Below are positions 3,323 to 12,721 of a stretch of 13,937 nucleotides of DNA, piece by piece. This stretch comes from Bdellovibrionales bacterium. GTDB taxonomy: Bacteria > Bdellovibrionota > Bdellovibrionia > Bdellovibrionales > DASUEL01. The stretch spans positions 1 to 13,937 of the forward strand of contig JBFWOZ010000062.1 in NCBI GenBank assembly GCA_050250255.1. Reading direction: 5' to 3'. The notes below the pieces were generated by a model that was given only the letters and a program-made list of their open reading frames with translations, did no database searches and had not been told where the DNA came from. The translations under genes and the position numbers were made by a program. Numbering within the stretch: position 1 is the first letter of the stretch; the number at the start of each line of letters is the position of its first letter.

Positions 3323-4915
3323 TTAGCCGAGAATGGTGTCTTGTGGTTTTGCGTCAGCGACGGGGTAATCAAGGCTATAATGAATTCCAACAGATTCTTT
3401 TCTTTTTAAGGCACACTGAACTGTTAAGTGCGCGACCTGTGCTAGATTTCGAAGCTCGAGAATGTCGGGGTGAACTTTGAAGTTCCAGTAATATTCTTTT
3501 ATTTCGTTCGAAATATTGACTAAGCGATTCTCGGCGCGCTTGAGACGACGGTCGGTGCGCACGATACCTACGTAGTTCCACATGAGACGGCGAATTTCTT
3601 CCCACATGTGAGAGATCATGATCATTTCATCTTCGTTTTGGTTCCCGTGATAAACCCAAACCGGTGGTTTTAAATCTGTTGGTGTAAACTCCTCAAGATG
3701 TTGTTTGATGTATTCTGCCGCCGAATTACCAAATACCAAACATTCTAAAAGAGAGTTGGAAGCGAGACGGTTAGCTCCGTGAAGCCCGGTATTTGCGGTT
3801 TCACCTATGGCAAAGAGACCTGAGATATCCGTACGTCCCCATTTGTCGACGAGCACTCCACCGCATAGGTAGTGAGCTGCGGGCACAACTGGAATAGGTT
3901 GTTGCGTGATATCAATGCCGTACTGTTTGCACTTTTCAAAAATCATCGGGAAATGACTAAAGATAAAATCGCGTGAGAGATGTGTGATGTCGAGATAGAC
4001 GCAAGGATCGCCTGATTTTTTAATCTCGGCATCGATGGATCGCGCCACGATATCGCGAGGCGCAAGCGACTCCATAGGATGATAACGTTTCATAAAAATT
4101 TCACCCTTACTATTTTTTAAAACTCCACCTTCTCCACGAAGGGCTTCCGAGATTAAAAAATTATTGGCATCTGGGTGATAGAGGCAAGTGGGGTGGAATT
4201 GCATAAACTCAAGGTTTGCCACGCGAGCGCCAATTCGGTAGGCCATCGCGATTCCATCACCCGTTGCGCCAGACCAATTGGAAGTGTAGAGATAAACTTT
4301 TCCGACTCCACCCGTCGCAAGAACCGTGGCACGAGCCAAATAGGTTTCGACTTTAAGATTTTTTGTGTTGAGAGCGTAGGCGCCGATACATCGAGCAGGC
4401 CCCGTTTGAAGAGGGTCGACCTTTTTATCGGTGATGAGATCAATCGCCATTCGATTTTCATGAAGCTCAATGTTGGGATGTTCTAAACATTTCTTTAAAA
4501 GTTGAGTATGAACAGAATGACCTGTGTGATCTTGCACGTGAAGCACGCGGCGTTTGAGATGTCCACCCTCCCTGGTGAGATCTTTATCAAACTCTACGCC
4601 CCATTTTTGTAAATCATGAATACGTTCAGGCCCCTGTTCGACACAAAACTTCACAATCTCTTCGCGACAAAGACCAGCACCTGCTTTTAATGTGTCTTGA
4701 ATATGTTCTTCGAAAGAGTCTTCGGCAGACACAACCGCCGCGATCCCGCCTTGGGCCATATCTGTATTGCTGCGATCAAATTGGCTTTTGGAAAGAAGAA
4801 TGACTTTTGCCTGGTCTGCTAAGTGAAGCGCAAAAGAAAGCCCTGCGAGTCCAGTCCCGATGACGAGGTAGTCACAGACCACAGTTTTCTCAGTTTTTGG
4901 AGAGGGGGATCCCAT
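3323..4915 (-). CDS. nadB: L-aspartate oxidase
   Basis: FAD-binding VIGTGLAG plus AQGGIAA, REGGH, EFMQFHPT, LISEALRGEGG, LAPRDIVARSI, PAAHYLCGG, GLHGANRLASNSLLE and RKESVGIHY; 530 aa. Confidence 0.96.
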   Translation of the reverse strand: MGSPSPKTEKTVVCDYLVIGTGLAGLSFALHLADQAKVILLSKSQFDRSNTDMAQGGIAAVVSAEDSFEEHIQDTLKAGAGLCREEIVKFCVEQGPERIHDLQKWGVEFDKDLTREGGHLKRRVLHVQDHTGHSVHTQLLKKCLEHPNIELHENRMAIDLITDKKVDPLQTGPARCIGAYALNTKNLKVETYLARATVLATGGVGKVYLYTSNWSGATGDGIAMAYRIGARVANLEFMQFHPTCLYHPDANNFLISEALRGEGGVLKNSKGEIFMKRYHPMESLAPRDIVARSIDAEIKKSGDPCVYLDITHLSRDFIFSHFPMIFEKCKQYGIDITQQPIPVVPAAHYLCGGVLVDKWGRTDISGLFAIGETANTGLHGANRLASNSLLECLVFGNSAAEYIKQHLEEFTPTDLKPPVWVYHGNQNEDEMIMISHMWEEIRRLMWNYVGIVRTDRRLKRAENRLVNISNEIKEYYWNFKVHPDILELRNLAQVAHLTVQCALKRKESVGIHYSLDYPVADAKPQDTILG

Positions 4916-5013: not shown

Positions 5014-5043
5014 TTGATAATTCTAAAGTCCTGAAATTAGAAT
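5014..5043 (+). promoter_or_regulatory. Candidate sigma70 promoter for the six-gene operon
   Basis: TTGATA (5014-5019), 18-bp spacer, TAGAAT (5038-5043). Implied TSS about 5050. Confidence 0.5.
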
Positions 5044-5083: not shown

Positions 5084-5116
5084 TGGACTAGGATGAGTCT
5101 ATTTTGGACTAGGATG
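5084..5116 (+). repeat. 12-bp perfect direct repeat TGGACTAGGATG x2, 21-bp period
   Basis: Copies at 5084-5095 and 5105-5116. The second overlaps the ribosome-binding region of the ATG at 5122. Confidence 0.85.
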
Positions 5117-5121
5117 GATCA

Positions 5122-7134
5122 ATGCGAATATCAATTACACTCAAGCTTTGTCTTGGAGTTTTTGCGATTTTAACTGGAGCACTCACCGTGCTTCTTTGGA
5201 AAACTTCGAGCATTTTAAAAGAAGATAAAATTTCTTATCTCAAAGAACAAACATCTCAGATTTCTTACGGCCTGGCTTTAGGCGCGAGCGAGAAAATGAA
5301 ACGTCTTGATCGCCAAATGACTTTCTACATGTCGGCGACTCCGTCAGCCGCTTTAGCAAGAGCCAGCAGCAATGAATTTTACTCTGTGGGCATGCTTTCG
5401 CGTGAACTTGGACAGCCTTGGAGTATTGATTGGAATTACAAATCCCAAGCGATCGACCAAGGTGTGGATGGACTCCTTGCAGATTTTTTAACAACGGTTC
5501 AAAAAAATCTTCAGTTGGATACAGTGAAGAGCGGAGATCAAACCCTCATTCGTCTTTTAACTCATGACAAACAACCTATCTTTGCGCTTCTCAGTCGACA
5601 GCCTAAGACAGATGAAGTCGCGGAGAAAATTGCGGTGAGTCTTCTTAAGACGTCGGTGTTTTTTGATCTCATCTCGATTTATAAAGGTGGCGTGCAGTCG
5701 GCCTACATCGTTGATGGTCAATCCGTTGTTTACGCGCACCCTTCGATTCATCTTACGGGAACCATCTTAAACGATGATCCCATCATGCAAGACATTCGCC
5801 AGAATTTTGCGGCCTCAACGGTAGAGCAATATGTGACAAGCGACGGGGACTCACTTATCGGAAGTTACGATCGTGTCCCTGGAACAAATCTCTTTGTGGT
5901 GACCGCTGTACCTTGGGAAGCAGCCTCAGCCGCGCTTGCGCAACTTCGTAGTAGTTTTATGATTCTTGGTTTGGGACTTATTTTTATTGCGCTCGCATTG
6001 ACCTACTGGTCTTCACAACTTTTGCGCCAACCACTTTTGAAAATTAAAAGAGCTATTGAAGACATCGCCGTGGGTCGCCCAACAATTATCGAGACGAGCT
6101 CAGATGATGAAATTGGGGATCTTGCTGAGAGTCTTTTTATAATGGATCAAAAGTTACGAACGAAAGAGCTTGAAACAAGAATCAACATGGCCGATCAGAT
6201 CTACCAAGGAAAAATGTCGGCTTTCAGTCAATTTAGCAGCGGGCTTGTTAATGAATTGCGTAACCCATTAATTGGCGTATTAGGGCATGTACAGCTGGCA
6301 AAAGAGAAGATGCGTGATTCCGAAGGCTTGAGACGACACCTCGATCTCATAGAGAATGATTGTCGCAAAACAAAAGAATTTATCGAAGACATCTCTCAAT
6401 TTACAGGCTCCGACAAGCTGGGTTTAGATAATATTAATATTTACGAAACGACCGTTGCGGCAATCGAGCAAGCAGAAAGAAGGTTACATCCACAAAATAT
6501 TTCTGTGATCAAAAACCTTTCTTCCAGTTCTAGCATTGTGGCAAACCCTGTTTTGATAAGAAAAGCGCTCCAGAATATTTTGGCTGCGGCTGGGCAGCTT
6601 TCTCCAGGCACAGAGCCACGAGACGTGATTGTTCGTCTCGAATCTTCTGATACGGAAGTGGATTTAACATGTGTGTTGAGCTCGCCTATTTTAGGCGACG
6701 TTAACTTTCAGAGCATCTTTGAACCGTTCTATAAAATTGGTATCGAAGAGACGGTGAACTTAGGACTCGATTTAGCCTTGGCCAAGGGAATTATCGAAGC
6801 GCACGACGGCAAAATTTCTTTTGAGCGTGTTCTCGAAAACCAATATCAGTTTAAAATTCAATTTCCTAAAGCTATGGAAGCGAAAGCGCCTGGCGTTCCA
6901 TTGGGACAGCTCGTTAGCGACCCGTTACACTTCAGTCTTCCGCATTTCTCGATCAAAGAAAAAAAGGAAGTCGCCATTTCTGATGTTCTCGCACAGCAAC
7001 CGGTTGTGATTGCCGTAGGAAAATCAGAAGAAACATCAGAGCCTGCGCCATTTTTGACAGAGAAAAAGTTTCTTGGAAAAGTGCCTATTGAAAAACTGAA
7101 AATTAGAATCAAACCACCAAGACTAAGGACATAA
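5122..7134 (+). CDS. Membrane sensor histidine-kinase-like protein (TM-Cache-TM-HAMP-HisKA-HATPase), predicted pseudokinase
   Basis: Two TM helices, a Cache-type motif (AYIVDGQSVVYAHP) and a HAMP domain (PLLKIKRAIEDIAVG...SDDEIGDLAES). The H-box reads LVNELRNPL (His->Asn), the N-box NILAAA, no DxGxG G1 box is visible, the F-box is IFEPFY and G2 is NLGLDL. Confidence 0.9.
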   Translation: MRISITLKLCLGVFAILTGALTVLLWKTSSILKEDKISYLKEQTSQISYGLALGASEKMKRLDRQMTFYMSATPSAALARASSNEFYSVGMLSRELGQPWSIDWNYKSQAIDQGVDGLLADFLTTVQKNLQLDTVKSGDQTLIRLLTHDKQPIFALLSRQPKTDEVAEKIAVSLLKTSVFFDLISIYKGGVQSAYIVDGQSVVYAHPSIHLTGTILNDDPIMQDIRQNFAASTVEQYVTSDGDSLIGSYDRVPGTNLFVVTAVPWEAASAALAQLRSSFMILGLGLIFIALALTYWSSQLLRQPLLKIKRAIEDIAVGRPTIIETSSDDEIGDLAESLFIMDQKLRTKELETRINMADQIYQGKMSAFSQFSSGLVNELRNPLIGVLGHVQLAKEKMRDSEGLRRHLDLIENDCRKTKEFIEDISQFTGSDKLGLDNINIYETTVAAIEQAERRLHPQNISVIKNLSSSSSIVANPVLIRKALQNILAAAGQLSPGTEPRDVIVRLESSDTEVDLTCVLSSPILGDVNFQSIFEPFYKIGIEETVNLGLDLALAKGIIEAHDGKISFERVLENQYQFKIQFPKAMEAKAPGVPLGQLVSDPLHFSLPHFSIKEKKEVAISDVLAQQPVVIAVGKSEETSEPAPFLTEKKFLGKVPIEKLKIRIKPPRLRT

Positions 7135-7135
7135 A

Positions 7136-8599
7136 ATGGAATTTACAAAAATTCGAAATGATTTTTCTGTCTATGTAGTCGATAGCGATCAGTCGAGTGG
7201 GGACCTCGCAACAGAGGCTCTTCGCGGTGTAGGGTATCACGTAGAAACTTTCCGCAAAGGTGAGGACGTTATTCTAGAAGCGACAAGACACCCCCCTCAT
7301 ATCATACTGACTGGAACTTACCTTATGGGTATGACCGGACTTCAGCTTTTGAGAAACATTAAAAATCTCAGCCCTGATATTCATGTGGTTTTCATGTCGA
7401 CCTACGCAGAAAACACTCTCACTCTTGAGGCTATTCAATCGGGAGCTTTTGATCGCATTTACAAACCGATTCAAGAGATTAATGAAATCATTACGACCGT
7501 TGATCGTGTTGCTGAGAAGATGTTTTTAGAAGCTTCCAACGAAGAACTGTACGCCAAGCTCGTGGCTAGTCGTTCGGCTCAGAAGAGACTTCGTAACCGA
7601 TTTAAATTTGAAAGAAAGTTTTTTCAGCAAATTCAGTCGCTCACGGGAACGCTGACAAAGTCTAAAGACACCCATGAGCTGATTCAAAATTTTCTAAAAG
7701 CGAGCCACAATACATTTGTCGAAACTCCGGTGGCATTTTTTAGATACTTACCGCTCCAGGATCAATTTATTCTCGCCCAGACGGCGGGATTGGATCAGGA
7801 ATCTCTCCAAGGGTTGCAACTAGAACTTTCGCCCGCGCAAATAGAACAAGACCCCGATGCTTTAAACGACTACACCATCTCCATTTTTGAAAAAGAAGGA
7901 TTTGAGTTTCGTTTCTTAAAAGAGGGTCCTCAAGTAATTGGCCTTTTTTTATTTTTGAAAAGCTTCAATGATCCGTTCGAAAAGAAATGTTTGTCTCAGC
8001 TATTTGAAATTTTTGAATTGAATTATCAAAAGCAGAGTTTTCAGAAAAAGCTTCATGAAAACACTATTTTTGATGAGGTCACGGGCATCTATACAAAATC
8101 CCAATTCCAAACACGGATTGCGGAAGAAATTAGCCGCTCTCGTCGCCTTTCTTTGCCAGTCTCTGTTTTACATATTGGTATTGATTCTGCTTATGAAATG
8201 AAACAAGGGCTCATGCCGAGCGAATGGAATGTGTTAGTGAGAGGTGTCGCTCAAAGTCTTAAAAAAACAAGTCGCGTGAACGACATTATTGCTCGTTATT
8301 CGGATCACGAGTTAGTCGTCATTCTTCCGCATACGGATCGTATGGGGGCGGCTATCAAGGCAGAAAAGTTTCGACGCTTTGTCGAGAGAACTCAGTTTTT
8401 AGAAAATAAGAATTTAAATATCTCGGTGACAGTTGGTGTGAGTGAATATCCTACGCTTTCTATGGATGCAGAAAATTTAGCATTGTCAGCGGATGCGGCT
8501 TACTTTCAAGTTAAAAAGATTGGCAACAAAGTGTGTATGGCCTCGGCTCCGCGCGGGTTGCAACCAGACTTTGAGGTGTCAACAGATCTTGGGACGTGA
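7136..8599 (+). CDS. Pseudo-receiver + GAF-like + degenerate GGDEF protein; probable c-di-GMP receptor (CdgA-like)
   Basis: REC fold motifs VYVVDSD, PHIILTG, VVFMST and RIYKP. GGDEF-domain motifs DEVTGIY, RVND-IIARY-SDHEL-VVILP, VTVGVSEYP, ADAAYF and GNKV. Confidence 0.88.
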   Translation: MEFTKIRNDFSVYVVDSDQSSGDLATEALRGVGYHVETFRKGEDVILEATRHPPHIILTGTYLMGMTGLQLLRNIKNLSPDIHVVFMSTYAENTLTLEAIQSGAFDRIYKPIQEINEIITTVDRVAEKMFLEASNEELYAKLVASRSAQKRLRNRFKFERKFFQQIQSLTGTLTKSKDTHELIQNFLKASHNTFVETPVAFFRYLPLQDQFILAQTAGLDQESLQGLQLELSPAQIEQDPDALNDYTISIFEKEGFEFRFLKEGPQVIGLFLFLKSFNDPFEKKCLSQLFEIFELNYQKQSFQKKLHENTIFDEVTGIYTKSQFQTRIAEEISRSRRLSLPVSVLHIGIDSAYEMKQGLMPSEWNVLVRGVAQSLKKTSRVNDIIARYSDHELVVILPHTDRMGAAIKAEKFRRFVERTQFLENKNLNISVTVGVSEYPTLSMDAENLALSADAAYFQVKKIGNKVCMASAPRGLQPDFEVSTDLGT

Positions 8600-9732
8600 G
8601 CGTGGTTCATCGGCTAAGGGGTACTTACGCAGAAATTCATCTTCCCCACTTAGCGGAAAACTACCGTACGCTCCGTAGTCTCTTGCCTTCTGAAAATTTT
8701 TTTTGCCCGATGATCAAAGCAAATGCCTACGGTCATGGGGATAAAGAAGTGGCCCTAGTCCTTCAAGATGCCGGTGCAGAACACGTGGGTGTGGTTCTTG
8801 TTGAAGAGGGGATTCGGCTCCGTGAGGCGGGCATCTCTATGGGAATTTTGGTTTTTGGTACATTTGATTCTGCCGCCGCTCAAGAATTTGTCCGTTACGA
8901 TCTCACTCCGGTCATTAGTAGTTGGCAGAGCCTCAAGATCTTTGAGGAGTCTTTGGAGAGCGATGCCTATTTAAGAGTGCATTTGAAATTTAATACCGGG
9001 ATGAATCGTTTGGGTTTTGAAGTAGAAGATGCCAAAAGATTAGCCCAGCACATGTCGGAGCAGTCCCGTTTTCAAGTCGTTGGCCTGTGTACACATTTGC
9101 TGAATGGAGAGGATGCCGGTATTGCTGACGGTTATTCTTCAAAGCAACAAGAAAGATTCTTAATGGTTCAAAAAGAATTTTCAGATCCTAAGATTCAAAT
9201 TCATTATTTGAATAGCTCAGCACTTTTAATGAATGTGGATTCTACATCTGGCGCTAGACCAGGAATTTCTATGTATGGCATTTACCCCCCTACTCACAAG
9301 AAACCTTCCGTACTTTTAAAACCGGTCATGAGTTTTCATAGCCATATCGCTCTTCTCCACCAGGTCAAAAAGGGTGAGGTTGTCTCTTACGGGGCGAAAT
9401 GGAAGGCCGAAAGAGATTCCATGATTGGATTAGTGCCTGTTGGCTATGCGGATGGTTACCCTAGAAGTCTCACGAATCGTGGACAGATGCTCGTCAGAGG
9501 AAAAAGAGTTCCGGTCACGGGAATTGTCTGCATGGATTATACGATGGTGAATTTAACAGATCTCCATTTACAAAAGCCTATCGAGCTCAACGAAGAAGTT
9601 GTGCTTTTCGGAAAGCAACTCGGACAAACTTTAAGTGTGCAGGAGTTAGCGGATTTAGCGGGAACGATTCCCTACGAAATAGTCACTCGCTTGGGAGCAA
9701 GGGTTTCAAAATCTTTTATTTATGAACATTAA
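8596..9732 (+). CDS. alr: Alanine racemase
   Basis: PLP-lysine motif MIKANAYGHG plus HLKFNTGMNRLG, RPGISMYG, catalytic Tyr in VSYG, PVGYADGY, GIVCMD and GTIPYE. The GTG start overlaps the upstream TGA (GTGA). No signal peptide. Confidence 0.96.
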   Translation: MSVVHRLRGTYAEIHLPHLAENYRTLRSLLPSENFFCPMIKANAYGHGDKEVALVLQDAGAEHVGVVLVEEGIRLREAGISMGILVFGTFDSAAAQEFVRYDLTPVISSWQSLKIFEESLESDAYLRVHLKFNTGMNRLGFEVEDAKRLAQHMSEQSRFQVVGLCTHLLNGEDAGIADGYSSKQQERFLMVQKEFSDPKIQIHYLNSSALLMNVDSTSGARPGISMYGIYPPTHKKPSVLLKPVMSFHSHIALLHQVKKGEVVSYGAKWKAERDSMIGLVPVGYADGYPRSLTNRGQMLVRGKRVPVTGIVCMDYTMVNLTDLHLQKPIELNEEVVLFGKQLGQTLSVQELADLAGTIPYEIVTRLGARVSKSFIYEH

Positions 9733-10513
9733 AACGATGAATCCACTCTATTGGGGAAAACAAGTTATCGAGGATGTAGGAATTTTTTCTACATTCGTAT
9801 TGGAATCCATACGCTGGGGTTTTCGCAAGCCATTTCGTTATAATGAGTTAATTGCTCATATTGAATTCATCGGAAACAAATCAGTTTTGATTATTACTCT
9901 CACTGGTGCGTTTACGGGAATGGTCTTCTCGTTTCAGGTGTATCAAGGTTTTAAAATTGTGAATGCGCAAAACCTCGTAGGTCCAACAGTAGCTCTTGGA
10001 ATTACACGAGAGTTGGGGCCGGTATTGACGGGCTTGATCGTGGCGGCACGAGCGGGTGGAGCTATGGCGGCACGAATTGGTACGATGAGAGTGACGGAGC
10101 AAATCGATGCACTTGAAGTGATGGGAGTAAACCCAAAACAATACCTCGCGGCCCCTCGTTTGTTAGCCGCATTGATTGCCACTCCTTTACTGACCGCACT
10201 TTTTATTTACGTGGCTCTCATAGGGGCACATTTTCTTTGTGTGAATTTATTGGGATTAGATGAGGCCATTTTTTTGAACAAAGTTTATTTATTCTTAGAG
10301 CCCAAAGACATTGCTCAAGGATTGATAAAAGCCGCTGTGTTTGGATTTATTTTTTCGACCATATGTATTTATAAAGGTTTTTTCACTAAGGGTGGCGCAC
10401 GTGGAGTAGGAAACGCTACGAATGAGGGTGTTGTTGCAAGTATGGTTCTCATCATTGTTTCCGATTATTTTATCACAAACTTAGCCGTTATTTTTTACAG
10501 GATTTTTCGATGA
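9722..10513 (+). CDS. mlaE: MlaE-family ABC transporter permease
   Basis: RELGPVLTGLIVAARAGGAMAARIGTMRVTEQIDALEVMGVNP, YLAAPRLLA and GGARGVGNAT. The start could be 9737 instead. Confidence 0.95.
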   Translation: MNIKTMNPLYWGKQVIEDVGIFSTFVLESIRWGFRKPFRYNELIAHIEFIGNKSVLIITLTGAFTGMVFSFQVYQGFKIVNAQNLVGPTVALGITRELGPVLTGLIVAARAGGAMAARIGTMRVTEQIDALEVMGVNPKQYLAAPRLLAALIATPLLTALFIYVALIGAHFLCVNLLGLDEAIFLNKVYLFLEPKDIAQGLIKAAVFGFIFSTICIYKGFFTKGGARGVGNATNEGVVASMVLIIVSDYFITNLAVIFYRIFR

Positions 10514-11361
10514 CCGCTAAAACTAATGAACAAATCATTCAAGAGCCTCCATTTACAGAAGACGAAGTGGCCATACAAGTCACGGGTCTTAAAAAAACTT
10601 TTAATGGAACAGATTTTGTTCTCAATGGTCTCAACCTAAGCATTCCTAAAGGGAAAATAACGGTTTTGATTGGATTTAGTGGTACCGGAAAAAGTGTGTT
10701 GATGAAACATCTGATGGGATTAGAAAAACCCACGGAAGGTTCGATACATATTTTGGGCGAGAATCTCACCATTATGACAGATGAACTTATCACTCTTTTT
10801 CGTCGCCGCTTTGGCGTGCTTTTTCAAAACGCAGCACTATTTGATGATATGACAGCGGCAGAGAATGTAATGTTTCCCCTCATGGAACACAGACCCGACC
10901 TTCGTCGCAATCAACAGAAGGATGTGGCCGTAGGCAAGCTAAAGCAAGTGGGGATCGTTGAAAAAGATTTTGATAAACTCCCCAATGAGCTCAGTGGTGG
11001 GATGCGGAAACGAGTAGGCCTTGCACGTGCTATAGCCCTAGATCCAGAAATCATCTTTTATGATGAGCCAACAACGGGTTTGGATCCCATTATGACAGAA
11101 ATGGTGGATAATTTAATATTAGGCACACATAAAAGCCGTGAAGGTTTGACTTCAATTGTGATTTCTCATGATTTGTCAGCCGCTTTTAGAATTGGTGATT
11201 ATGTGGCGATGTTAGATAAAGGGCAGATTTTGCTTTTTGGAACGCCTAAAGATTTTTTTGAAACGGATATTGAGCTCGTTCATCGATTTGTAACTAAAGG
11301 TTTACATCGAGAAACGCGTCATGGGGGGAACAACAAGAATGAACCTACTGAAGTCAGCTGA
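10510..11361 (+). CDS. mlaF: MlaF-family ABC transporter ATP-binding protein
   Basis: Walker A GFSGTGKS, Q-loop FQNAALFD, signature LSGGMRKRVGLARA, Walker B IIFYDEPTTGLDP and H-loop ISHD. ATGA overlap with mlaE. Confidence 0.95.
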   Translation: MTAKTNEQIIQEPPFTEDEVAIQVTGLKKTFNGTDFVLNGLNLSIPKGKITVLIGFSGTGKSVLMKHLMGLEKPTEGSIHILGENLTIMTDELITLFRRRFGVLFQNAALFDDMTAAENVMFPLMEHRPDLRRNQQKDVAVGKLKQVGIVEKDFDKLPNELSGGMRKRVGLARAIALDPEIIFYDEPTTGLDPIMTEMVDNLILGTHKSREGLTSIVISHDLSAAFRIGDYVAMLDKGQILLFGTPKDFFETDIELVHRFVTKGLHRETRHGGNNKNEPTEVS

Positions 11362-12721
11362 ACTTCGGGTTGGTTTTTTTGTTATCATCATTTTGGTGAT
11401 GATCGCTCTTCTCTCTATGCAAGCCAGTGAAGATCCGGGATATCTGGGCAGTTCCAAACACTACAAATTTAAATTAGACGACGCTAGCGGACTCATCGTA
11501 AGAAGTGCGGTGAAGGTTGCAGGGATTGATGTTGGTATCATTAAAAAAATGAGTTTCGACCGTGGCAAAGCTTTAATAGAAGTAGCCATGCGGGGCGATG
11601 TTCTCGTGACAACTTCGGCAGCTATTGAAGTTCGACCTAACGGCATTTTGGGAGATAAGTATGTTGAAATCCTTCCCGGAAATCCTGATGATTCTCCGTT
11701 AGAAAATGGTGCTGAAATTTTGATTGTGAACAATCGCGCTTCGATGGATGTGATCATGAAGGAAATAGGTAAGATCACCGAGTCGGTTTCGGAAGTGACG
11801 GAATCCTTGAAGCTCGCCGTGAAAGACGGAAACGAAAATTCAGGACCGCTCGCTCGAATCATTCATAACATTGAACGTCTGAGCAAAGATTTGGCCGATT
11901 TAAGTCACGGCAATAAAGATAAGCTCAATGAAATCGTGGATAATGTTCATCGTATTACTGACACGATTGATGGAATCGTGAGTGACGAAACGGATGAGGG
12001 TCTGAAGGCATCCTGGAGAAAGGTGGCGAGCAGTATCTCGAACATCGAAGAAGTCACGGAGAAGTTAAATAGCGGCAAAGGAACTATTGGTCGTTTGATC
12101 AACGATGAAGAGACCGTTGAGAAGTTAAATACGACAATCGACGGTGTGAATAGTTTTGTAGGTGGCGCGAATAAGATGACGACAGCCATCGATTTTCACT
12201 CCGAATACTTAATGGAGCAGTCTCTTGCAAAAAGTTATATCGGCATGCGACTCCAGCCAGGTTTAGATCGTTACTACGAATTAGCGATCGTGGATGATCC
12301 AAAGGGTGTCGTTGAACGTGTCGACACGACAACCACAGTGAATCCAGGCCCTAACGAATCGACAAATAAAACGAGAGAAATTAAATCCTTCAAAAACAAA
12401 ATCAAGTTCACGGCCCTTTTCGCGAAGAATTTTTATAACTTCACGGTGAAGGGCGGTTTGATTGAGAGTAGTGGTGGTTTGGGTTTTGATCTTCACTTCT
12501 TTAAGCGCTCACTCCGCTGGTCGACAGAGGCCTATGAGTTTTCTAACAATCCGCCGCACTTGAGAAGTTCTCTTCGCTACAATTTCTACCGTGGGATTTA
12601 CCTCATCGGTGGAGCCGATGACATCCTTTCTAAGGGCGGAACTTACTCCTCATTCCTTGGTGCCGGTATCGATCTCACCAACGACGACTTGAAGCTGCTG
12701 CTTTCGAAATCTCCGTTTTAG
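11339..12721 (+). CDS. mlaD: MlaD/MCE-family protein with helical extension and C-terminal beta-barrel-like domain
   Basis: N-terminal TM (ELRVGFFVIIILVMIALLSM), MCE motifs (DASGL..RSAVKVAGIDVGII, GILGDKYVEILPG), a heptad-rich middle and a beta-strand-rich C-terminus. Start 11339 is preferred over 11321 because GGGGGGA lies about 9 nt upstream of it. Confidence 0.92.
   Translation: MNLLKSAELRVGFFVIIILVMIALLSMQASEDPGYLGSSKHYKFKLDDASGLIVRSAVKVAGIDVGIIKKMSFDRGKALIEVAMRGDVLVTTSAAIEVRPNGILGDKYVEILPGNPDDSPLENGAEILIVNNRASMDVIMKEIGKITESVSEVTESLKLAVKDGNENSGPLARIIHNIERLSKDLADLSHGNKDKLNEIVDNVHRITDTIDGIVSDETDEGLKASWRKVASSISNIEEVTEKLNSGKGTIGRLINDEETVEKLNTTIDGVNSFVGGANKMTTAIDFHSEYLMEQSLAKSYIGMRLQPGLDRYYELAIVDDPKGVVERVDTTTTVNPGPNESTNKTREIKSFKNKIKFTALFAKNFYNFTVKGGLIESSGGLGFDLHFFKRSLRWSTEAYEFSNNPPHLRSSLRYNFYRGIYLIGGADDILSKGGTYSSFLGAGIDLTNDDLKLLLSKSPF

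What the first reader, a model, noticed from the sequence alone, without database searches (positions are those of the whole stretch)
5122..8599. Phosphorylation-free two-component relic: pseudokinase paired with a pseudo-receiver / pseudo-cyclase
Seen: both adjacent genes (1-nt gap) keep full domain architecture and open frames yet lack each catalytic residue: kinase His->Asn with eroded N/G1/G2 boxes, receiver Asp->Gly, and GGDEF->SDHEL. The periplasmic Cache sensor, HAMP and RxxD I-site are retained. Targeted loss in both partners with intact ORFs argues for repurposing rather than decay. Established: pseudokinases (Caulobacter DivL) and degenerate-GGDEF c-di-GMP effectors (PopA; Bdellovibrio CdgA) act as scaffolds or localisation hubs. 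Inference: a membrane-anchored complex integrating an extracytoplasmic ligand and c-di-GMP purely allosterically through a DHp-REC contact. If the host is a predator, the pseudokinase could be the membrane anchor or sensor of a CdgA-type invasion-pole hub.
Basis: partly seen in the sequence, partly recalled or inferred. Interest (0 to 1): 0.78.

Follow-up and report, generated by a model that had tools for sequence, protein, structure and literature searches.

The report
CdgA and its disarmed sensor kinase
These two genes are the counterparts of the prey-invasion protein CdgA of predatory Bdellovibrio bacteria and of the sensor kinase beside it; here both have lost their catalytic residues, and the former kinase likely serves as a membrane anchor that holds the c-di-GMP-binding CdgA.

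Summary
In detail: His→Asn377 with the ATP-binding residues gone, receiver Asp→Gly60, GGDEF→SDHEL, RxxD kept. The second gene is the orthologue of Bdellovibrio CdgA (Bd3125), a known c-di-GMP receptor at the invasion pole. The first sits at the position of Bd3126, and the order nadB | kinase–cdgA–alr–mlaEFD matches B. bacteriovorus.

What relatives add: the pair descends from a kinase + REC-GAF-GGEEF cyclase module whose catalytic motifs are still complete in 16 of 119 pairs, including another class. Catalytic residues were lost several times and in different orders; Bdellovibrio keeps the kinase His. In this window's clade the dead DHp and pseudo-receiver are the most conserved parts of their proteins, which argues against decay. 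Across all states two things persist: the I-site (119/119) and a C-terminal VxIRxP tail on the kinase (109/119), even where the kinase core is gone.

Best reading (0.6, inferred): a membrane sensor-scaffold that holds CdgA without phosphotransfer. Binding is not shown. Known receptor, new variant, testable in B. bacteriovorus.

The parts
5014..5043 (+). Sigma-70-like promoter (TTGATA-N18-TAGAAT) upstream of the kinase gene; function inferred
   Evidence: Same pattern upstream of 46 of 105 orthologous loci against 0.4% of shuffles; the pattern was defined after seeing the loci
5122..7134 (+). Pseudo-histidine-kinase P0001 (670 aa), positional orthologue of Bd3126: TM-dCache-TM-HAMP-DHp-CA-disordered linker-tail
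   Evidence: synteny
5212..5946 (+). Periplasmic dCache-like domain, residues 31-275; ligand unknown
   Evidence: Pfam dCache_1 E 8e-4, below cut-off; intact orthologue L035 E 1.4e-8; confident model
6205..6411 (+). DHp, residues 362-430: His replaced by N377 (6250-6252); E378 and N381 kept
   Evidence: His absent in 6 of 6 clade proteins, 39 of 69 positions invariant; the helix-1 stretch after the H box matches intact kinases
6427..6876 (+). CA domain, residues 436-585, folded but lacking the N-box Asn (A489) and the G1 Asp (L519)
6877..7080 (+). Variable linker, residues 586-653, predicted disordered
   Evidence: pLDDT under 50; 33% identity within the clade
7087..7131 (+). Conserved C-terminal tail, family consensus [LV]-[DE]-x-[FY]-x-V-x-I-R-[RK]-P; candidate docking motif
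   Evidence: Loose motif in 108 of 118 orthologues against 14 of 1366 genome ORFs; strict 76 of 118 against 3 of 1366; column counts
7136..8599 (+). CdgA orthologue P0002 (487 aa): pseudo-REC, long helix, GAF-like domain, degenerate GGDEF
   Evidence: Reciprocal best hit with the GVNEF protein of L211; model
7163..7477 (+). Pseudo-receiver, residues 10-114: D16-S17, G60 in place of Asp (7313-7315), K110 kept
   Evidence: G60-T-Y-L invariant in 10 of 10 clade proteins
7670..8068 (+). GAF-like middle domain, residues 179-311; assignment inferred
   Evidence: Secondary-structure order in the model; Foldseek lists 4zmu and 5llw with long alignments; no Pfam hit
8273..8314 (+). I-site R380-V-N-D383 (8273-8284) and dead A-site S389-D-H-E-L (8300-8314)
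   Evidence: RxxD in 119 of 119; E331 and R337 also invariant in 115 of 115
8596..9732 (+). Alanine racemase (Bd3124 position), overlapping cdgA by 4 nt; likely the same operon
9722..12721 (+). mlaE, mlaF, mlaD (MCE), conserved downstream genes
3323..4915 (-). nadB (L-aspartate oxidase), divergent upstream landmark
   Evidence: Pfam FAD_binding_2 + Succ_DH_flav_C; same position annotated L-aspartate oxidase in strain 109J

Best explanation
P0002 is the orthologue of the Bdellovibrio c-di-GMP receptor CdgA, and P0001 is its co-encoded sensor kinase that has lost its His and ATP-binding residues and likely acts as a membrane anchor holding CdgA without phosphotransfer. Shown: both proteins lack their catalytic residues, keep their folds in the models, and descend from a kinase + REC-GAF-GGEEF module whose motifs are intact in relatives. 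Established in B. bacteriovorus: CdgA makes no c-di-GMP, binds it (Kd about 2 uM), sits at the invasive pole and interacts with RomR and SgmX. Inferred: P0002 binds c-di-GMP made by other cyclases at its I-site; P0001 holds it at the inner membrane through the conserved C-terminal tail on a flexible linker and, in this clade, also through the preserved DHp-pseudo-REC surfaces. Least supported step: a ligand at the Cache domain changes that docking and so gates CdgA.
For: Orthology: reciprocal best hit, 1e-55 against next 2e-22 and 3.8e-53 against next 1.2e-12; L211 carries the published GVNEF motif; gene order equals that of strain 109J. Selection within the clade: DHp 72% and REC 59% identity against 44% for CA and 31% for the middle domain. 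Linkage: genes overlap by 4 nt in 58 and abut in 24 of 118 loci; conserved promoter-like site. I-site 119/119 and tail 109/119; the tail persists where DHp or the whole kinase core is undetectable. Published Tn-seq rows: the kinase gene W 0.07/0.70/0.52/0.44, the GGDEF gene 0.31/0.56/0.42/0.69 on four prey conditions, while downstream alr is 1.30 on the one condition seen. CdgA function: PMC3271064, PMC3983030 (passages). Four complete GGDEF-domain proteins elsewhere in the genome could supply c-di-GMP.
Against: No experiment links the two proteins. Bd3126 did not appear in the text or the two held supplement files of the RomR proximity paper. The Tn-seq values have large SDs (up to 0.78), and kinase insertions could be polar on cdgA. 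The DHp is usually the most conserved part of any kinase and also dimerises, so its conservation need not mean REC docking. For P0001 the reverse search is not a clean best hit: two unrelated kinases score above each of the syntenic protein's two segments, so its orthology rests on synteny and the forward hit. The tail motif is short; four other stretches in this genome score as high on a profile of it. No FHA-GGDEF (DgcB-like) protein was seen among four complete GGDEF proteins; two contig-edge ones were not scanned. A predatory lifestyle for this organism is inferred from its order.
Confidence: 0.6

Rival explanations
1. The two proteins are co-transcribed but no longer touch. The pseudokinase works on another partner (another kinase, as DivL does on CckA, or a hub protein such as SgmX or RomR through its tail), while CdgA is placed at the pole by RomR and SgmX alone.
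For: CdgA already has shown partners: RomR, SgmX and Bd1971. In 27 of 119 pairs the kinase keeps His and G1 while the REC is dead, which suggests another target. DivL acts on CckA (PMC9430884 passages).
Against: The adjacency and tight coupling persist across two classes despite loss of the flanking genes in the outgroup. In this clade the DHp helix-1 stretch and the REC beta5 K110-P111 are both preserved.
Confidence: 0.22
2. P0001 is a kinase-dead but phosphatase-competent sensor that dephosphorylates some other response regulator.
For: E378 and N381 are kept in 6 of 6 clade proteins. In HisKA proteins the Asn at this position is the residue needed only for phosphatase activity, and the His is not always required (PMC3510030 passages).
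Against: Its cognate receiver has no Asp to dephosphorylate (10 of 10). ATP-binding residues are lost. The same paper notes that PleC loses both activities without His. Other His-less orthologues do not keep the Asn (L044, L045, L053, L055, L061).
Confidence: 0.1
3. The pair is a decaying remnant kept open by chance or by translational coupling to alr and mla.
For: Degenerate orthologues have long branches; two Bdellovibrio-labelled MAG loci have short kinase ORFs (L087, L095); some lineages lost the kinase core.
Against: Frames are open and catalytic substitutions are fixed across a clade at 42-70% identity; 39 of 116 REC and 39 of 69 DHp positions are invariant; the I-site is invariant; cdgA deletion has a phenotype.
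Confidence: 0.04

Closest known systems
Bdellovibrio bacteriovorus CdgA (Bd3125)
   Same: Reciprocal best hit (27-28% identity), same locus, dead GGDEF with RxxD I-site, same length class and domain order.
   Different: A-site SDHEL rather than GVNEF. The receiver is still Pfam-detectable with Asp→Gly and Lys kept, whereas the GVNEF protein's receiver is not detected by Pfam. The neighbouring kinase has lost His here but keeps it there.
B. bacteriovorus Bd3126 ('histidine kinase', PMC11870529)
   Same: Same position between nadB and cdgA; TM-Cache-TM-DHp-CA-linker-tail layout; same tail motif.
   Different: The Bdellovibrio protein keeps ALAHEMRGPL, N, G1, F and G2; P0001 has lost His, the N-box Asn and G1. 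Only 20% identity.
Caulobacter PopA
   Same: c-di-GMP receptor with I-site and dead A-site, related to an active response-regulator cyclase (PMC10333796 passages).
   Different: PopA is REC-REC-GGDEF and coordinates CtrA degradation. P0002 is REC-GAF-like-GGDEF and degenerated in place, beside its cognate kinase.
Caulobacter DivL
   Same: Pseudo-histidine kinase with DHp and CA folds (4q20 among Foldseek matches); the kinase part is lost altogether in some lineages, as here.
   Different: DivL has PAS domains and reads phosphorylated DivK to control CckA. P0001 has a periplasmic Cache-like domain and a cognate partner that cannot be phosphorylated.
PleD / WspR response-regulator diguanylate cyclases
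   Same: Best structural and profile matches. Intact orthologues of the pair have all motifs of this type.
   Different: P0002 lacks the phospho-Asp and the A-site, and has a GAF-like domain in the middle.

Membership tests
CdgA (Bd3125) orthologues | Reciprocal best hit with the GVNEF protein | tested here: met
CdgA (Bd3125) orthologues | Locus kinase-cdgA-alr(Bd3124)-mlaEFD next to nadB | tested here: met
CdgA (Bd3125) orthologues | Degenerate GGDEF with RxxD five residues upstream | tested here: met
   RVND then SDHEL
CdgA (Bd3125) orthologues | Binds c-di-GMP and makes none | not testable with these tools
   Shown only for B. bacteriovorus (PMC3271064)
CdgA (Bd3125) orthologues | Sits at the invasive pole with RomR and SgmX | tested here: inconclusive
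   MglA-like (C13:63224) and RomR-like (C8:83304) genes found by recalled motifs; SgmX not searched; localisation not testable
Active HisKA histidine kinase | Phospho-accepting His in the H box | tested here: not met
   N377; absent in 6 of 6 clade proteins
Active HisKA histidine kinase | N-box Asn and G1 Asp for Mg-ATP binding | tested here: not met
   A489, L519
Active HisKA histidine kinase | DHp and CA folds | tested here: met
DivL-type pseudokinase | Kinase fold without His | tested here: met
DivL-type pseudokinase | PAS domains and a phosphorylatable DivK-type partner | tested here: not met
   No PAS hit; the cognate receiver lacks Asp
PleD/WspR-type active cyclase | Phospho-Asp receiver and GG[DE]EF A-site | tested here: not met
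   G60, SDHEL; met by 16 of 119 orthologous pairs
PopA | REC-REC-degenerate GGDEF architecture | tested here: not met
   One REC and a GAF-like domain

The most novel reading that the evidence does not exclude
The kinase's C-terminal tail is a phosphorylation-independent leash on CdgA that predates the loss of catalysis. It let a whole two-component cyclase module shed His, Asp, GGEEF and even the kinase core repeatedly while staying wired, and it makes the Bd3126-type protein the periplasmic sensor that positions and gates CdgA at the prey-invasion pole.
Probability: 0.2. Interest if true: 0.8.

Novelty: new variant of a known kind. Interest (0 to 1): 0.52.

Why it matters
CdgA has been known since 2012 as a c-di-GMP receptor needed for fast prey entry. 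In the passages I read, its membrane anchor, upstream input and origin are not given. This locus names a candidate anchor (the Bd3126-type protein) and a roughly 10-residue motif to mutate, both testable in a genetically tractable laboratory predator. The family also holds a living series from motif-complete module to double pseudo-enzyme to kinase-core-less sensor, a rare natural record of a two-component system turning into a scaffold. It further suggests that the reported absence of Bd3126 from epibiotic predators (PMC11870529) may be loss of the kinase core rather than of the gene.

Tried and rejected
Complex prediction of P0002 with the 35-residue kinase tail: score 0.27 against a mark of 0.32, no controls folded, no verdict; it is not evidence either way. 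The DHp-REC pair was not folded (one job only). The first genome-contig scan with P0002 alone found nothing; an alignment then found 78 loci. Sequencing runs: no RNA holder listed, no evidence on expression. The protein atlas gave no answer twice. Earlier scan findings: nothing by sequence or words. Rooting the neighbour-gene tree failed: only 1 of 5 outgroup genomes had an mlaF match. The source of the claim that Bd3126 is linked to host independence was not found: no '3126' in four cited papers, PMC3067643 is not held, and the sixth cited paper (Cotter and Thomashow 1992) was not looked up. dN/dS was not computed: no DNA of the 70%-identical relative was obtained (one search gave one clade locus, L147). 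Ribosome-binding-site constraint as the cause of the tail was considered: the motif starts 9-18 residues from the stop at variable distance, so it may explain only the last Gly/Lys/Arg positions. A profile of the tail found no convincing second carrier in the genome. A 19-nt direct repeat at 5084-5123 and CTAG-rich spacer DNA were not seen upstream of the 58 relatives printed. Decay was rejected on clade-level conservation.
Full report
Observation. The window holds nadB on the minus strand, then five or six genes in one direction: P0001 (5122-7134), P0002 (7136-8599), alr, mlaE, mlaF, mlaD. In P0001 the H-box His is N377, the second N-box Asn is A489 and the G1 motif reads LSSPI. In P0002 the phospho-Asp is G60, the acid pair is D-S, the A-site is SDHEL and RxxD is intact. 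AlphaFold2 gives P0002 as REC (10-114), a long helix (115-174), a GAF-like domain (179-311, my assignment from topology and Foldseek matches) and GGDEF, at pLDDT 95.8. P0001 folds as Cache-like, DHp and CA domains with an unstructured stretch from 590 to 653.

Identity. P0002 is CdgA. Locus L211 (handle G151) carries the GVNEF motif published for Bd3125, and the two proteins are reciprocal best hits by about 33 and 40 orders of magnitude. In the Tn-seq supplement of PMC6561027, Bd3124 is alanine racemase (EP01_RS00905), flanked by a GGDEF protein (RS00910), a sensor kinase (RS00915), L-aspartate oxidase (RS00920) and three ABC/Mla genes. That is the window's gene order; equating RS00910 and RS00915 with Bd3125 and Bd3126 is my inference from adjacency. 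P0001 is the best hit of the L211 kinase in this genome, but the reverse search ranks two other kinases above each of its two segments, so its orthology rests mainly on synteny. The genome is in the same order as these loci and has MglA-like and RomR-like genes, recognised by recalled motifs.

The family. I tabulated the window plus 118 orthologous pairs. Dropped beforehand: nine duplicates, L034 (near-duplicate), and loci whose CdgA was cut or under 440 aa or had no adjacent upstream ORF. The set is biased towards Bdellovibrio-like sequences by the pattern. Results: 16 have His, G1, a complete receiver and GGEEF (L149 and L199 miss by one motif); 27 keep His and G1 beside a dead receiver and A-site (these include the Bdellovibrio-labelled genomes); 26 lack His but keep G1 (two, L087 and L095, are short ORFs and may be miscounted); 32, including the window, lack both; 4 have a degenerate kinase with GGEEF kept; L038 lacks His with an intact receiver; 11 have a cut kinase gene. 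Intact pairs occur in another class of the phylum (L196-L200, L207-L209), and a CdgA tree rooted on that class places intact lineages at the base. The ancestor therefore had a motif-complete kinase and response-regulator cyclase; activity itself is inferred.

How many losses. Both trees need four changes between intact and degenerate. On the tree of four neighbouring genes (41 rows, unrooted) a single degenerate clade is rejected (AU p 8e-7), and joining the window's clade to the Bdellovibrio-like clade is rejected at p 0.013 (that group was named after seeing the tree). Against this, the CdgA tree puts the window's clade next to the large degenerate clade at unstarred support 90-92, among long branches. 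Repeated loss is well supported; whether this clade lost catalysis independently of Bdellovibrio is likely but not settled.

Selection. In the window's own clade, G60-T-Y-L, K110-P111 and RxxD are invariant in 10 of 10 CdgA proteins at 42-70% identity while the A-site varies freely. His is absent in 6 of 6 kinases while 39 of 69 DHp positions are invariant. DHp (72%) and REC (59%) are the most conserved regions. Four of the five clade kinases share a longest-contig length with a clade CdgA, which suggests they are neighbours. This is repurposing, not decay.

What never goes. RxxD is present in 119 of 119. A tail motif, [LV]-[DE]-x-[FY]-x-V-x-I-R-[RK]-P, ends 108 of 118 orthologous kinases against 14 of 1366 long ORFs of this genome, after an acidic variable linker. 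It persists in 34 proteins with a periplasmic domain but no detectable DHp, 11 of which also lack a detectable CA domain. A DHp-REC contact therefore cannot be the general link, though it remains plausible in this clade, where the helix-1 stretch matches intact kinases. The genes are tightly coupled behind a conserved promoter-like site.

Mechanism. Established for B. bacteriovorus: CdgA has no cyclase activity, binds c-di-GMP at about 2 uM, marks the invasive pole, speeds prey entry, and interacts with RomR, SgmX and Bd1971. RomR itself is reported not to need phosphorylation. Tn-seq insertions in the kinase gene lower predatory fitness about as much as those in cdgA (0.07-0.70 against 0.31-0.69), and the value on planktonic V. 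cholerae passes that paper's W<0.1 cut; the SDs are large and polarity is not excluded. My inference: P0001 is an inner-membrane scaffold that holds CdgA through the tail and the DHp-pseudo-REC surfaces, CdgA reads c-di-GMP made elsewhere, and Cache ligand binding may modulate the docking. I give this 0.6. Rivals: a different partner for the pseudokinase (0.22), phosphatase-only activity through the kept N381 (0.10), decay (0.04).

Comparison and novelty. P0002 works like PopA and is a member of the CdgA group; P0001 works like DivL but fails its membership test. A search for 'Bd3126' found one work, which calls it a histidine kinase absent from epibiotic predators. In my data, Pseudobdellovibrio-labelled loci (L108, L121, L128, L130, L131, L132, L137) keep a homologous upstream gene with the tail and no detectable DHp; I did not check which of these are epibiotic. 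Searches found no account of CdgA's receiver, its intact relatives, or the tail; most subscription journals are not searched. Verdict: a new variant of a known system, interest 0.52.

What I saw of each paper. Passages: PMC3271064 (its Text S1, an old .doc with the domain figure, was not read and may describe CdgA's N-terminus), PMC3983030, PMC11025332 (plus a term search of two supplement files; no proteomics table among them), PMC11870529 (abstract, passages, reference list), PMC6561027 (passages and single supplement rows), PMC3510030, PMC6428892, PMC6733907, PMC6717892, PMC10333796, PMC9430884. Term searches only: PMC2277423, PMC3818213, PMC3013116, PMC11323537. Not held: PMC3067643. The roles assigned to N-box, G1 and receiver residues are general knowledge, recalled.

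Noticed in passing
window:1931-3187 (-) and window:206-1918 (-): Two long ORFs (418 and 570 aa) with signal-peptide-like N-termini and no Pfam or NCBIfam hit. A homologue of the 418-aa protein lies near the intact pair in outgroup locus L200, beside a 570-aa ORF.
   Followed up: partly
window:5084-5123: Two copies of a 19-nt direct repeat spaced 21 nt just before the kinase start; its 11-nt core occurs only here in the genome, and the 206-nt spacer has 6 CTAG against 1.1 per kb genome-wide. Not seen in the relatives printed.
   Followed up: partly
L153 and L158; L063: The same receiver Asp→Gly change appears in L153/L158, whose closest relatives L149/L152 are intact, and in L063 from the window's family: likely convergent in the first case.
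   Followed up: partly
L201, L203-L205 (other class): Opposite state: kinase degenerate beyond recognition except for the tail, receiver acid pair altered, GGEEF intact. Candidates for a cyclase controlled without phosphorylation.
   Followed up: no
L084, L086, L088, L092, L096, L103, L211: Bdellovibrio kinases keep all catalytic boxes although their cognate receiver is dead, so they may have a different phospho-target.
   Followed up: no
window:8564-8572: CdgA ends in a conserved P-D/E-F motif beyond the GGDEF domain (P477 88%, F479 90% of 115); E410, R413 and E437 are also near-invariant. Possible docking surface.
   Followed up: no
window:8596-12721: cdgA is followed directly by alr and mlaEFD in most loci of the order, linking it to D-alanine synthesis and MCE lipid transport; the MlaD is long (466 aa). 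The next gene varies: purH in L031 and L035, a TPR protein in L042, an opposite-strand epimerase here.
   Followed up: partly
G000:C13:63224-63823 and G000:C8:83304-84401: MglA-like small GTPase and RomR-like receiver protein, recognised by recalled motifs.
   Followed up: partly
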